Positions 10,801 to 13,800 of a stretch of DNA of 64,000 nucleotides are shown in pieces. Position 1 is the stretch's first letter; every line of letters starts with the position of its first letter. The stretch comes from Escherichia coli (GTDB lineage: Bacteria > Pseudomonadota > Gammaproteobacteria > Enterobacterales > Enterobacteriaceae): assembly GCF_024298765.1 (NCBI RefSeq), contig NZ_CP101210.1; one strand, written 5' to 3'. A program made the position numbers.

Positions 10801-13800
10801 TTTATTTATTCAATGAATTTATATTTCGTTGAATAGATAATATTTACCTGAATATTAGACGTTGGTTTTGTGACTGATGTCGAATATTTGAATGTCGGCT
10901 TGAAAAATAAGCCGACCATCTCTTTAATTAAGCACAATTCCGTGTAATGTATATGCATTAGTTAATCATCTTGTAACTGTTAAATCAGGCAAGGCAATGT
11001 TTGAAGTAGTTATTACTTCTGACGTGCCTTGCCTTTTTTTTTGGAGCTATGGAATGATCATCGAAAAAGTCATGAACAATAATTGTGTACAGGCATCGAT
11101 GAATGGACAGGAGGTTATCATTTCTGGGCCTGGCGTCGGTTACAACAAAAAATATGGAATGTCGGTCCCTGAGCATCCGGCTAACCGGATTTTTTATGTC
11201 AGAAATGAACAAAAAAATAAACTCTACAAATTGATTGAGCATGTGGATATCGAGTATGTTTTTGTTGCCGAAAAAATAGTGCAATATGCGGAGAACAATC
11301 TCGAAAAAAATCTCAATCCATCGCTACTATTGATTCTTGCTGATCATATTTCGAATGCAATATCCCGAGTCGCTTCAGGCATACAAATTAATAATGTTTT
11401 CCTTGATGAAATCAAAGCGTTGTACAAAGCAGAGTATGCGATAAGTCGCGATGCATTAACTATCATTAATGAGCAATTCAGCGTTCAACTTCCTGATGAT
11501 GAGATTGGTTTTATAGCATTGCATATCTTAAATAATTATGAAAATTCAGTTGATTATGAATCAGTACGGATTATTGAGTTGTCGCAAATAATCACGGGGC
11601 TTATTGAAGTTGTTTATAACAGAAAGGTGGACAGAAGTTCATTTAATTATTCCAGGTTCATGATACACCTTAAATATTTTTCAAGTCGCGTATTATGCAA
11701 TGAAAAAATAAAACAGAAAGATATTGGTGATCTCTATGAACAGTTTCTTGAGAAAGACATTCTGTTACAGCGCGCAATTCATGAAATTGAAAGGTATTTG
11801 TACGCCACTTTTAAATATGAATTGATTTTGGAAGAAAAACTATATCTCTCTATTCGCACCAAAGTATTAATGGACTAATTATATATAACATTTATATGAG
11901 ATAACCCGCATGAAACAAAAGAAAGCCTGGAGTTTTTTTCAGAGCCTGGGAAAGGCATTTATGTATCCCATCGCTCTGCTAAGTGTATGTGGCATGATGT
12001 TAGGGCTAGGAAGTGGTTTAGCCAGCGATGATATGGCAAAATTAATTCCACTACTGGCTATTCCCGTAATTAAAACCATTCTTGATTTTATTGTTAGCCT
12101 TGGTTTGTTTGCCTTTGTCAATTTACCTGTATTGTTTGCGATAGCTATACCTCTGGGGTTATTAAAAGAGAAAGAGGATAAAGCCTATGGCGCTTTTTCT
12201 GGCTTAATTGGTTTCATGGCGATGCATCTGGGAACGAACTTTTATCTTAAACAACATGACTTATTGGTCGCTGCTGATCAAATGTCGACACATGGGCAAA
12301 CCATTATTCTGGGAATCCAGTCCTACAATACCAGTGTGTTGGGTGGGATTATAGCAGGATTATTAGTCGCCAGTATGTATAAAAAGATCGTTAACTTACG
12401 TATTCCTGAATCATTAGGATTTTATAGTGGTCCACGCCTGGTGCCTATTATTACACTGATTGTGATGAGTGGATTTGGTCTGATCATCCCTTTTATCTGG
12501 CCGCCATTTTTCAATCTTTTCATGCTCATTGGCCACTGGATTTCAACTTCCGGTCCTGTTGGCTATTTTTTCTATGCAGTCGCCGAACGCGTGACGATAC
12601 CTTTTGGTTTAAATCACCTGGTGACGTCAGTTTTCCGCTTTACCCCCATCGGCGGATCGGCAGTGATCGGCGGCGAAGAGTATTATGGCACCCTGAACAT
12701 GTTTATGGCGTACGTCAAAGAGAATGCGGTCATTCCGCTGGATTTGGCGGGGAAAATGGAACAGGGCAAACTGATGATTCAGTATGGTCTGGCTGGTGCC
12801 GCGCTGGCGATGTATCGCACTGCTCATGCTCAAAACAGAAAAGCTATCAAAGCATTGCTTATTTCCGGGGTGCTTACAGTCATTATTGGCGGCGTCAGCG
12901 AACCGATTGAGTTTCTGTTCTTATTTGTCAGTCCACTGCTATTTGTCTTCCATGCTTTTATGAATGGCTTCGCCAACATGGTCTTGCCATATATGGGCGT
13001 GAAGATGGGATTTACTGGCGATCTGATTCAATTTATTAGCTTTGGCGTATTGCGTGGCACAAGAACAGGTTGGCCAATAGCGATGTGTGTCGAAGTGGCC
13101 TATTTCTTTATTTATTACTTTGTGTTCCGTTGGACTATTCTCAAATTTAACCTGATGACGGTAGGCCGTGAAGAGTCCAGTCCTGTCACGCTGAACGCTC
13201 ATGAGGATACGGCTATAGCGGATATCCCAACGCTTGATAAATCAGAGCTGCAAGCAGCGGAGCAGATGGTTAAGGCACTTGGTGGTAAAGAGAATATTAA
13301 ATCCCTGGATAATTGCGTAACTCGTTTACGTTTAACAATCGCAGATATGGGATTGATTGACGAGGCAGCAATAAAAAGAGCTGGCGGAATTGCGGTTGTT
13401 AAACTTGATCAAAATACCCTACAAGTCATTATCGGTACTAAAGTCATCGCCTTGCGTCGGGATATGGATAACTACATGGGGATATGCTGATGGATGTTTT
13501 TAATACTCCTATTTCCCGCAAAGGAACATATTGTACCCAATGGGACTTTTGCGAGGACAGATTTGGTGTAAAAGATGTATTACCATTCTCTATTTCAGAT
13601 ATGGATCTTCCGATACCGGAAGCTATCATCAGGGCATTAAGAAAACGTCTGGAACACCCGATTTTAGGGTACAGCCGTTGGCAGCATGATGACTATCTGA
13701 ATGCGATAGTCAATTGGTATCATCAACAATATAAAACTGAAATCAAACCAGAATGGATAACCTATAGCCCAAGCGTGATGTACTCCATTGCTAAAGCAAT

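What the first reader, a model, noticed from the sequence alone, without database searches (positions are those of the whole stretch)
10970..11056. RAT-like sequence overlapping a strong terminator directly upstream of the antiterminator gene
A hairpin with 10-bp perfect arms (aggcaaggca / tgccttgcct) is followed by nine T and then GGAG and ATG. The 5' arm is embedded in tgtaactgttaaatcaggcaagg, which resembles the RAT consensus bound by BglG/LicT/SacY proteins. This is the classical arrangement for antitermination-controlled, autoregulated operons. There is no room for a second RAT between the antiterminator and the PTS gene (31-bp gap), so both are likely controlled from this single leader.
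Basis: partly seen in the sequence, partly recalled or inferred. Interest (0 to 1): 0.5.

Follow-up and report, generated by a model that had tools for sequence, protein, structure and literature searches.

The report
RAT–terminator switch before E. coli antiterminator operon
This is an ordinary but previously unannotated RNA on/off switch of the well-known BglG/LicT type: a strong transcription terminator that is overlapped by the binding site of the antiterminator protein encoded just downstream, and that controls a horizontally acquired sugar-uptake operon found in about a third of E. coli genomes.

Summary
At 10987-11034 there is a long hairpin (about -28 kcal/mol). It is followed by a run of U, then GGAG, then the ATG (11054) of a CAT-PRD1-PRD2 antiterminator gene.

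A 29-nt RAT-like hairpin (10968-10996) shares its last 10 nt with the 5' arm of the terminator, so the two folds exclude each other.

The RAT core is almost invariant in leaders of the same five-gene cassette from E. coli, Atlantibacter, Citrobacter, E. whittamii and unnamed metagenome contigs. In the three most distant leaders, one stem pair switches G-C to A-U without ever mismatching. The terminators diverge in sequence but stay paired through compensatory changes.

A covariance model built only from canonical RATs (E. coli bgl t1/t2 and Clostridium tertium) ranks this site first in the window. It matches only model positions 4-26. The canonical GG/CC basal clamp and lower internal loop are missing.

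The gap between the antiterminator and PTS genes is 31 nt and holds no RAT, so a single leader switch is likely.

Protein binding, the inducer and the promoter were not tested. Verdict: a new, slightly atypical member of a known kind; low to moderate interest.

The parts
10968..10996 (+). RAT (ribonucleic antiterminator) hairpin, 29 nt: AUCUUGUAACUG-UUAAAU-CAGGCAAGGCA. Pairs 10970-73 with 10990-93, U10974.G10989, AA bulge at 10975-76, pairs 10977-79 with 10986-88, apical loop 10980-85.
   Evidence: Folds alone at -6.3 kcal/mol. 23 of 24 core columns are invariant in 8 distinct leaders. Pair 10979-10986 is G-C in 6 rows and A-U in 3, never mismatched. The upper half is identical to C. tertium RATs.
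10971..10992 (+). Conserved RAT core that matches canonical RATs (canonical positions 4-26, including internal loop 2).
   Evidence: Top hit in the window for covariance model R1, built from E. coli bgl t1/t2 and three C. tertium RATs: 15.7 bits, E about 0.013, model positions 4-26.
10987..11034 (+). Intrinsic terminator hairpin (20 pairs in three segments, 5-nt loop). Its 5' arm 10987-10996 is also the 3' strand of the RAT (10-nt overlap).
   Evidence: -27.9 kcal/mol, z -6.5. Every lineage folds at -26 to -30 kcal/mol despite sequence change. Three pairs show double compensatory changes and 93.8% of cells are paired.
11035..11042 (+). U-tract of the terminator (nine U counting 11034).
   Evidence: A run of at least 8 T is kept in the close lineages. 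The 42% and 39% leaders keep T-rich tails; the 51% leader's tail is interrupted.
11043..11046 (+). Shine-Dalgarno GGAG, 7 nt before the start codon.
   Evidence: invariant in alignment A2.
11054..11878 (+). BglG/LicT-family antiterminator gene (274 aa; CAT 1-55, PRD1 73-160, degenerate PRD2 184-250).
   Evidence: NCBIfam LicT 227.7 bits and GlcT 178.6 bits, both below the equivalog cut-offs. Pfam CAT_RBD 2.7e-14, PRD 1.6e-23, second PRD 0.085. Aligned to LicT structures 1TLV, 6TWR and 1H99. PGAP start.
11879..11909 (+). 31-nt gap between the antiterminator and PTS genes: TTATATATAACATTTATATGAGATAACCCGC. No RAT, no hairpin with a U-run.
   Evidence: The length is the same in the three other lineages compared.
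11910..13490 (+). MalX-like PTS EIICB permease, the presumed sensor that controls the antiterminator.
   Evidence: TIGR02004 PTS-IIBC-malX 536.8 bits, below cut-off. Always follows the antiterminator gene in the cassette.
13490..16282 (+). Rest of the cassette: PatB/MalY-family C-S lyase (13490-14665), SIS-only KpsF/GutQ-like isomerase (14668-15264), D-2-hydroxyacid dehydrogenase (15335-16282).
   Evidence: The lyase and SIS genes keep this order in every cassette lineage; the dehydrogenase is uncalled, fragmented, absent or replaced in some.
10869..10950 (+). Region that should hold the promoter (unresolved). It contains a conserved TGTGA-N6-TC CRP-like half-site (10869-10881) and two candidate -10 hexamers, CACAAT (10933-10938) and TAATGT (10945-10950).
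   Evidence: Conserved blocks in A1 and A2. The consensus scan found no sigma-70 promoter in the window. The homologous position in L004 gives AGGACA-18-GATAAT. This placement is inference only.

Best explanation
The element is the leader switch of an operon with five genes: antiterminator, MalX-like PTS EIICB, PatB-type lyase, SIS isomerase and dehydrogenase.

How it most likely works:
1. Transcription starts somewhere in 10900-10960. The promoter is not identified.
2. The nascent RNA first forms the RAT hairpin (10968-10996).
3. When the 3' arm (11025-11034) emerges, the much more stable terminator (10987-11034 plus the U-tract) takes over the RAT's last 10 nt. Transcription then stops about 12 nt before the antiterminator start codon.
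4. When the unknown PTS substrate is being transported, the EIICB protein no longer phosphorylates PRD1 of the antiterminator. The protein dimerises and its CAT domain clamps the RAT hairpin. The terminator cannot form, and RNA polymerase reads through into the antiterminator gene and the four genes behind it.
5. Because the antiterminator gene lies behind its own terminator, the loop is positively autoregulated and depends on basal read-through.

Shown here: the terminator, the RAT hairpin, their mutual exclusion, their conservation and covariation, the protein's domain make-up, and the absence of a second RAT.

Inferred from the family: protein-RNA binding, PTS control through PRD1, autoregulation, and the position of the promoter.
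For: Terminator:
- Strong fold, z -6.5.
- Retained in every lineage at -26 to -30 kcal/mol with compensatory changes.
- The distant cassettes L138, L139 and L141 have quite different terminator sequences. Each still overlaps the 3' end of the RAT and is followed by a T-rich tail (interrupted in L138), an SD and an ATG.

RAT:
- 29 nt with a 10-nt overlap, inside the published 29-33 nt and 6-10 nt ranges (PMC5393181).
- Upper half identical to C. tertium RATs.
- Top hit of a covariance model trained only on canonical RATs.
- 96% invariant columns, against 38% upstream and 53% in the rest of the terminator.
- G-C to A-U covariation at 10979/10986.
- One copy per genome in 1688 of 5426 E. coli genomes, and 1414 of those copies are identical over 39 nt.

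Switch:
- The RAT is the lowest-energy fold for most transcript lengths until about 11026. After that the terminator wins by about 11 kcal/mol.
- The energies are the same size as those of E. coli bgl t1 and t2.

Protein:
- CAT + PRD1 + PRD2.
- The histidines equivalent to LicT His100, His159 and His207 are present.
- The NNN motif, Gly25, Gly27 and Lys33 of CAT are invariant across the aligned homologues.

Precedents for a single RAT-terminator ahead of an antiterminator-then-PTS operon: E. faecalis nagY-nagE (PMC9981650) and bglG t1 in E. coli.
Against: - The canonical basal GG/CC clamp and lower internal loop (loop 1), one of the two CAT contact sites in the LicT-RAT structure, are absent. 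No basal pairing is kept across the lineages.
- The RAT hairpin alone is only marginally better than shuffles (z -2.0, 11 of 200). The E. coli bgl RATs have similar folding energies.
- No consensus promoter was found.
- PRD2 is degenerate, and the histidine equivalent to LicT His269 is Arg.
- Rfam gives no match for any family.
- No expression or binding data were found in the searchable literature.
Confidence: 0.85

Rival explanations
1. The hairpin is only an ordinary intrinsic terminator or insulator, for example ending amiC read-through. The RAT resemblance is coincidental and has no regulatory role.
For: The hairpin is a textbook terminator by itself. The RAT fold alone is weak. The lower half of the RAT is non-canonical.
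Against: The same RAT-plus-terminator leader travels with the cassette into unrelated genomic contexts with no amiC upstream. The RAT core is much more conserved than its flanks and one pair covaries. A separate hairpin at 10894-10916 lies nearer to amiC. A CAT-PRD gene follows immediately in every lineage.
Confidence: 0.03
2. The RAT is real, but it is read mainly by another antiterminator (E. coli BglG) through cross-talk, not by the protein encoded downstream.
For: Positions 4-12 and 19-25 are close to bgl t1 and t2. Cross-talk among BglG-family systems is documented in B. subtilis (PMC1635312 and PMC3105407).
Against: The lower loop, which sets specificity in B. subtilis, differs completely from the bgl RATs. 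Position 8 is A instead of the specificity-determining U8. The cassette carries its own antiterminator in every lineage, with its own conserved residues (Pro, Tyr, Asn) at the positions equivalent to LicT 27, 31 and 32. bglG is itself a pseudogene in at least one island-positive strain (SK1144).
Confidence: 0.04
3. The switch exists but the locus is silent (cryptic) in E. coli, as bgl is, because of H-NS binding to this AT-rich island. The element would then have little effect under normal conditions.
For: The cassette is 33-47% GC against about 52% in the flanks. No consensus promoter was found. The antiterminator or PTS gene is frameshifted in some strains. H-NS silencing of AT-rich acquired DNA such as bgl is described in PMC2646131 (abstract listed).
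Against: The leader and genes are intact and highly conserved in most of the 1688 genomes. This rival concerns promoter activity and does not contradict the antitermination mechanism.
Confidence: 0.2
4. Protein binding at the RAT mainly affects translation or mRNA stability of the antiterminator gene, not termination.
For: The terminator ends directly at the SD (11043). In the distant cassette L141, a second RAT between the antiterminator and PTS genes has no U-run terminator. It overlaps a small hairpin that reaches the GGGGG SD-like run.
Against: In the window, the nine-U tract and a stem of about -28 kcal/mol are the signature of intrinsic termination, and the SD lies outside the stem.
Confidence: 0.05

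Closest known systems
E. coli bgl operon leader (RAT/terminator t1 upstream of bglG, t2 between bglG and bglF)
   Same: Same species and same logic: the RAT overlaps an intrinsic terminator directly ahead of the antiterminator gene (t1). The energies are similar: RAT -6.4, terminator -26.0 at t1, against -6.3 and -28.6 here. 16 of 29 RAT positions are identical (my count).
   Different: bgl has a second RAT/terminator before the PTS gene; here there is none (31-nt gap). The bgl RATs have the GG/CC clamp, A3/A26-A27 loop 1 and U8. This RAT has none of these. The PTS here is a MalX-type EIICB, not a beta-glucoside EIIBCA.
Enterococcus faecalis nagY-nagE (NagY antiterminator, PMC9981650)
   Same: The antiterminator gene comes first and the PTS gene second. 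A single RAT overlaps a rho-independent terminator in the 5' UTR, the operon is autoregulated, and the RAT departs from the classical consensus.
   Different: Different sugar family (N-acetylglucosamine), different RAT sequence, a Gram-positive host. It has been shown experimentally, whereas this one has not.
Bacillus subtilis LicT/licS-bglPH and GlcT/ptsG RAT systems
   Same: CAT-PRD1-PRD2 protein, 29-nt RAT, overlap with the terminator, and an internal loop 2 (UAA/G here against UUA/G). LicT and GlcT are the best NCBIfam matches. Like the ptsG RAT, this RAT departs from the others in its lower part (PMC1635312).
   Different: There is no canonical loop 1. The antiterminator gene lies behind the switch. 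LicT Arg27, Phe31 and Gln32 are replaced by Pro, Tyr and Asn. The LicT His269 equivalent is Arg. The apical loop is conserved, whereas PMC5393181 describes it as variable.
Clostridium tertium licT locus and Clostridium acetobutylicum bglGTH (PMC12628678)
   Same: The closest homologues outside the cassette are clostridial LicT-like proteins at about 35-37% identity. Their RATs share UUGUAACUG...AUCAGGCAA exactly, including A at position 8. They also have long two-part terminator stems.
   Different: They carry RATs both before the antiterminator gene and before the PTS gene, with GG/CC clamps, and the PTS is of the beta-glucoside type.

Membership tests
BglG/SacY-family RAT-terminator antitermination element | RNA segment of 29-33 nt able to fold into a hairpin | tested here: met
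   29 nt at 10968-10996; folds at -6.3 kcal/mol. Definition from PMC5393181.
BglG/SacY-family RAT-terminator antitermination element | 3' end of the RAT shares 6-10 nt with the 5' arm of an intrinsic terminator, so the folds exclude each other | tested here: met
   10-nt overlap at 10987-10996. Terminator -29.4 against -18.1 kcal/mol with the RAT enforced. The RAT pair probability in the full leader rounds to 0.
BglG/SacY-family RAT-terminator antitermination element | Conserved RAT sequence, including the upper internal loop (loop 2: U7 U8 A9 / G22) | tested here: met
   The covariance model built from 5 canonical RATs ranks the site first in the window at 15.7 bits, E about 0.013, positions 4-26. 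Loop 2 is UAA/G, with A8 as in the C. tertium RATs.
BglG/SacY-family RAT-terminator antitermination element | Lower internal loop (loop 1: N3 / N26 N27) closed by a basal GG/CC clamp | tested here: not met
   Model positions 1-3 and 27-30 are not aligned. In the canonical register A68/A96 and U69/C95 cannot pair. C70-G93 pairs instead, and no basal pairing is conserved across lineages. A canonical-type loop 1 is seen only in the distant cassette L141.
BglG/SacY-family RAT-terminator antitermination element | Evolutionary support for the RAT stem | tested here: met
   Pair 10979-10986 is GC in 6 rows and AU in 3, with no mismatch. 92.6% of cells are paired, against 30-53% when the partner is slid. 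The support rests on one fully covarying pair.
BglG/SacY-family RAT-terminator antitermination element | Cognate CAT-PRD antiterminator encoded in the same locus | tested here: met
   CAT_RBD 2.7e-14 and PRD 1.6e-23. LicT and GlcT are the top NCBIfam matches. The gene follows the leader in every cassette lineage.
BglG/SacY-family RAT-terminator antitermination element | Specific binding of the antiterminator to the RAT, and sugar-dependent read-through | not testable with these tools
   Needs EMSA or MST, reporter fusions, or term-seq.
BglG/LicT-type antiterminator protein (CAT-PRD1-PRD2) | Two PRDs, each with two conserved phosphorylatable histidines (LicT His100, His159, His207, His269) | tested here: inconclusive
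   The equivalents of His100, His159 and His207 are present. The equivalent of His269 is Arg in all enterobacterial orthologues and His in the clostridial homologues. PRD2 scores only E = 0.085 in Pfam. Scores are below the NCBIfam equivalog cut-offs for LicT, GlcT and BglG.
Intrinsic (rho-independent) terminator | Stable G+C-containing stem-loop followed at once by a U-tract | tested here: met
   20-pair stem, -27.9 kcal/mol, z -6.5, nine U. The simple scanner missed it in the window, probably because the stem is interrupted, but found the uninterrupted homologue in A. hermannii.
Any curated Rfam family | Match to an Rfam covariance model | tested here: not met
   No match at E up to 10 in 9000-17000.

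The most novel reading that the evidence does not exclude
The cassette may carry a distinct RAT/CAT subclass.

The conserved RNA determinant is only canonical positions 4-26 plus a nearly invariant apical loop (UUAAAU). The lower loop and clamp, one of the two symmetric CAT contact sites in LicT-RAT, are dispensable or replaced. In parallel, the enterobacterial branch of the protein has fixed Pro, Tyr and Asn at the positions of LicT Arg27, Phe31 and Gln32, and has lost the last PRD2 histidine.

This would imply asymmetric or apical-loop-reading recognition. It would also imply an antiterminator not activated by HPr in the LicT manner, with catabolite control perhaps moved to a CRP-type promoter element.
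Probability: 0.2. Interest if true: 0.45.

Novelty: new member of a known kind. Interest (0 to 1): 0.3.

Why it matters
The element is the likely control point of the five-gene PTS cassette that lies next to amiC at the amiC-proximal end of the island bounded by the tRNA-Met (metV) cluster. A comparative study places c3405-c3410 in PAI-CFT073-metV and finds it in all four UPEC strains examined, in E2348/69 and in SMS-3-5, but not in the other strains compared (PMC2831201). I did not compare the window directly with CFT073.

From my own memory, which I could not check here, deletion of c3405-c3410 attenuated CFT073 in a mouse urinary-tract model (Lloyd et al. 2009).

The cassette is present in 31% of complete E. 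coli genomes, and neither the RAT nor the terminator is annotated in RefSeq.

Knowing that expression is gated by an antitermination switch gives a direct handle on the locus. Deleting the terminator, or expressing the CAT domain alone, should force expression. That would allow the unknown substrate to be identified and the role of the locus in fitness to be tested.

For RNA biology it adds a Gram-negative RAT that lacks the canonical lower loop. This is a modest extension of a well-understood mechanism.

Tried and rejected
- **Rfam scan of 9000-17000 at E up to 10:** nothing found.
- **Promoter:** the consensus scanner found none in 10600-12100. A weak AGGACA-18-GATAAT in L004 maps to AAGCCG...CACAAT in E. 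coli, which has a poor -35. I could not place the transcription start.
- **Small hairpin or palindrome GTGTA-N5-TAYRC (10942-10956):** only one-sided changes, and a slid control pairs as well (95%). Not supported.
- **Basal clamp for the RAT (CAU/AUG, or U69.R94):** not conserved across lineages.
- **Intragenic terminator-like hairpin at 11175-11190 with a T-run:** not conserved in other lineages, so probably chance.
- **Terminator-like site at 11932-11956 in the PTS gene:** only 3 G-C pairs and no real U-run. Ignored.
- **The '56% identical' homologue P0021/L137:** it is a noisy assembly of the E. coli locus itself, not an intermediate relative.
- **Genome-wide pattern scan:** the Collinsella hits and many others have no terminator and look like coding sequence or chance matches. 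I did not build a model from the Firmicute hits of that scan, because they were selected with this RAT's own pattern and the test would have been circular.
- **Second RAT copies:** none in the window, and none per genome in the E. coli collection at the sensitivity of a 39-nt blastn.
- **Literature:** Gordon et al. 2015 (a RAT search in K-12 and UPEC) and Lloyd et al. 2009 are not held in the library. I cannot say whether this site was already listed there.
- **Second covariance-model hit at 15827-15865 (-):** E 0.2, inside the dehydrogenase gene on the wrong strand. Treated as chance.
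Full report
**Where we are**

The window is E. coli. argA (7980-9377, -) and amiC (9453-10796, +) are followed by an AT-rich block: 33-47% GC against about 52% in the flanks. The segment 10797-11910 is 100% identical to strain 104.

PGAP annotates five co-directional genes there:
- a 'PRD domain-containing protein' (window 11054-11878);
- a PTS EIIC transporter (11910-13490);
- a MalY/PatB-family protein (13490-14665);
- a KpsF/GutQ-family SIS protein (14668-15264);
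- a 'phosphoglycerate dehydrogenase' (15335-16282).

Type VI secretion genes follow on the other strand. Four tRNA-Met genes lie at 43471-43877. This matches the c3405-c3410 set that PMC2831201 places in PAI-CFT073-metV, though I did not compare the window with CFT073 directly. The leader plus antiterminator gene occurs in 1688 of 5426 complete E. coli genomes at 90-100% identity.

**The observation**

All the described letters are present:
- arms AGGCAAGGCA (10987-10996) and TGCCTTGCCT (11025-11034);
- nine consecutive T at 11034-11042, the first of which is part of the arm;
- GGAG at 11043-11046;
- ATG at 11054, which is both the PGAP start and the conserved start in other lineages.

The in-frame ATG at 10997 reported by the ORF lister lies inside the hairpin and is not conserved.

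The arms are the base of a 20-pair interrupted stem with a 5-nt loop. Its energy is -27.9 kcal/mol, z -6.5, and 0 of 200 shuffles fold as well. The simple terminator scanner missed it, probably because the stem is interrupted. It did find the uninterrupted homologue in Atlantibacter hermannii.

**The protein downstream**

The 274-aa product has CAT_RBD (residues 1-55, 2.7e-14), PRD (73-160, 1.6e-23) and a weak second PRD (184-250, E 0.085). Its best NCBIfam models are LicT (227.7 bits) and GlcT (178.6 bits), both below the equivalog cut-offs.

Alignment to LicT structures shows the equivalents of His100, His159 and His207. The His269 equivalent is Arg, and this holds in every enterobacterial orthologue.

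In the CAT domain, the N-terminal NNN motif and the glycines are kept. LicT Arg27, Phe31 and Gln32 are the residues that, with Gly26 and residues 5-10, contact the RAT (PMC3105407). Here they are Pro, Tyr and Asn. Pro at that position is also the wild-type residue of B. subtilis SacT.

**The RAT**

In the canonical register, the RAT is 10968-10996: AUCUUGUAACUG-UUAAAU-CAGGCAAGGCA. It is 29 nt long and its last 10 nt are the 5' arm of the terminator. Both values fall within the published ranges of 29-33 nt and 6-10 nt (PMC5393181).

Alone it folds into a lower stem (UCUUGU/GCAAGG), an AA bulge, an upper stem (CUG/CAG) and a 6-nt loop, at -6.3 kcal/mol.

For reference I fetched real canonical RATs:
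- E. coli bgl t1: GGATTGTTACTGCATTCGCAGGCAAAACC;
- E. coli bgl t2: GGATTGTTACCGCACTAAGCGGGCAAAACC;
- three from the Clostridium tertium licT locus, for example GGATTGTAACTGATTCGATCAGGCAAAACC.

The window RAT shares UUGUAACUG and AUCAGGCAA exactly with the clostridial ones, including A at position 8.

A covariance model built only from those five RATs with the canonical structure ranks 10971-10992 first among all positions of the 64-kb window on both strands. The score is 15.7 bits and E is about 0.013 (rough calibration). The alignment covers only model positions 4-26. The basal GG/CC clamp and loop 1 (A3/A26-A27) are absent. In that register A68/A96 and U69/C95 cannot pair, and C70 pairs with G93 instead.

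A degenerate core pattern occurs once in the window, against 0.03 expected.

**The switch**

Folding growing transcripts shows the RAT hairpin as the minimum-energy structure for most lengths until about 11026. Once 11030-11034 are made, the terminator replaces it. In the full leader the terminator state is -29.4 kcal/mol against -18.1 with the RAT enforced, and the RAT pair probability rounds to 0.

These numbers are of the same size as for bgl t1 (RAT -6.4, terminator -26.0) and t2 (-7.8, -33.5). The RNA is therefore built so that termination is the default and a RAT-stabilising factor is required for read-through.

**Comparative evidence**

The word-index search found orthologues only in E. 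coli (93-100%) and in Atlantibacter hermannii and enteric metagenome contigs (77-80%). Below that there is a gap down to clostridial LicT-like proteins at 35-37%.

A full HMMER scan of 1.84 billion representatives added intermediates at 51%, 42% and 39% identity.

All of these sit at the head of the same cassette (antiterminator, EIICB, aminotransferase-fold lyase, SIS, usually a dehydrogenase). The genomic contexts differ. The cassette is therefore a mobile unit that carries its own leader.

In the close lineages plus six E. coli alleles:
- the RAT core is invariant in 23 of 24 columns;
- the upstream 107 columns are 38% invariant;
- the rest of the terminator is 53% invariant.

The terminator keeps 93.8% of cells paired, with three doubly compensated pairs. 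Each lineage folds at -26 to -30 kcal/mol.

The distant leaders L138, L139 and L141 have quite different terminator sequences. Each still starts inside the 3' end of the RAT and ends in a T-rich tail (interrupted in L138), an SD and an ATG.

In these three, the upper-stem pair 10979-10986 is A-U instead of G-C. Over nine sequences it is GC six times, AU three times, and never mismatched. C70-G93 is CG six times, UG once and unpaired twice. The next basal pair is inconsistent.

The apical loop is almost invariant: UUAAAU, UUAGAU in L138, and UUUAAU in a second site of L141. PMC5393181 describes canonical RAT loops as variable.

A scan of one genome per species found the identical RAT in Citrobacter sp. 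FP75 and Escherichia whittamii. It also found canonical GGCUUGUGACUG...CAGGCAAGACC RATs with terminators in Butyricicoccus and related Firmicutes. This shows that C3/G26 also occurs with the clamp.

**One switch for the operon**

The gap from antiterminator to PTS gene is 31 nt (TTATATATAACATTTATATGAGATAACCCGC). It has no RAT or terminator, and its length is the same in the three other lineages compared.

The 39-nt RAT region occurs exactly once per genome in the same 1688 E. coli genomes, and 1414 copies are identical. RefSeq annotates no feature under it.

A single leader switch controlling the antiterminator gene and the genes behind it is therefore the simplest reading. The same layout is experimentally documented for nagY-nagE of Enterococcus faecalis (PMC9981650). 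The E. coli and C. acetobutylicum bgl operons instead have a second RAT before the PTS gene (PMC12628678).

**What remains open**

- The promoter is not identified.
- A conserved TGTGA-N6-TC block (10869-10881) resembles half a CRP site.
- Binding of the protein to this RAT, control by the EIICB protein, the inducer, and whether the AT-rich locus is silenced are all inferences from the family.
- The missing lower loop, the conserved apical loop, the Pro/Tyr/Asn CAT residues and the lost PRD2 histidine might mark a recognisable subclass. Equally, they may be within the normal spread of the family: the B. subtilis ptsG RAT also departs in its lower loop (PMC1635312).

**Verdict**

The finding is real and correctly interpreted. 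It is a new, unannotated and slightly atypical member of the BglG/SacY RAT-terminator class. It is useful as a handle on an uncharacterised accessory PTS operon that has been reported as UPEC-associated. It is not surprising in mechanism.

Noticed in passing
window 11054-11878 (residues about 264-270, ...LYLSIRT...): The fourth conserved PRD histidine (the LicT His269 equivalent) is Arg in this protein and in all enterobacterial orthologues, but His in the clostridial homologues. PRD2 scores only E = 0.085 in Pfam. Regulation through PRD2 by HPr may be altered or lost.
   Followed up: partly
window 11126-11152 (CAT residues 25-33, GPGVGYNKK): The positions equivalent to LicT Arg27, Phe31 and Gln32 are Pro, Tyr and Asn. 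These are conserved in the enterobacterial clade. PMC3105407 calls Phe31 'strictly conserved'. Pro occurs at this site in SacT, and Asn occurs at the Gln32 site in SacY.
   Followed up: partly
window 10797-16500; loci L002-L006, L138-L141: The unit of antiterminator, MalX-like EIICB, PatB/MalY-like lyase and SIS-only isomerase is conserved, usually followed by a 2-hydroxyacid dehydrogenase and in L141 by an EIIA gene instead. It is found in at least four different genomic contexts, with antiterminator identity down to 39%. In E. coli it has low GC. No EIIA gene is present in the E. coli version. The substrate is unknown. It resembles malX-malY with an antiterminator added.
   Followed up: partly
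L141 1025-1079: In the most distant cassette, a second and fully canonical RAT (GGCTTGTAACTGTTTAATCAGGCAAAACC) lies between the antiterminator and PTS genes. It has no U-run terminator. By my manual pairing (not folded), its 3' end can pair into a small hairpin (CCGAUU/AAUUGG) that abuts the GGGGG SD-like run. This may be RAT-controlled translation.
   Followed up: no
window 10869-10881: TGTGA-N6-TC is conserved in all four close lineages upstream of the leader. It looks like a CRP half-site, with a weak second half (TCGAA in E. coli).
   Followed up: partly
window 10942-10962: A conserved block GTGTA-N5-TAYRC-CAT-N-AGT lies just upstream of the RAT. Pairing of GTGTA with TAYRC is not supported beyond slid controls. 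It could be part of the -10 region or of the 5' end of the leader.
   Followed up: yes
window 10894-10916: A 9-bp hairpin GTCGGCTT-GAAAAAT-AAGCCGAC with no proper U-run, present only in the E. coli alleles. It may be the amiC terminator, and it overlaps the region where a -35 element would be expected.
   Followed up: partly
L012 658-1481 (strain E67); L014 from 1516 (O111:H8 strain 99.1145): The antiterminator gene (E67) or the PTS gene (O111:H8) is annotated as frameshifted, while the RAT and terminator stay intact. This suggests decay of the cassette in some lineages.
   Followed up: no
window 11175-11190: A terminator-like hairpin (ATCCGGCTAACCGGAT followed by TTTTT) inside the antiterminator gene. 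It is not conserved in other lineages, so it is probably chance.
   Followed up: yes
window 43471-43877 (-) and about 16580 onward: Four tandem tRNA-Met genes mark the far end of the island. Type VI secretion genes (VasL-domain, tssE, tssJ, tssG) start right after the cassette on the opposite strand.
   Followed up: no
window 15827-15865 (-): The second-best hit of the canonical RAT model (GGGUUGUU...CAAAACC, 12.3 bits, E 0.2), inside the dehydrogenase gene on the antisense strand. Probably chance.
   Followed up: no
L136 1391-2227 (strain SK1144): bglG is annotated as a pseudogene (internal stop) in a strain that also carries this island, while both bgl RAT/terminators are intact.
   Followed up: no
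L137 (protein P0021): A '56% identical' database homologue is a low-quality assembly of the E. coli amiC-antiterminator locus, with many indels. It is an artefact in the protein collection, not a real intermediate.
   Followed up: yes
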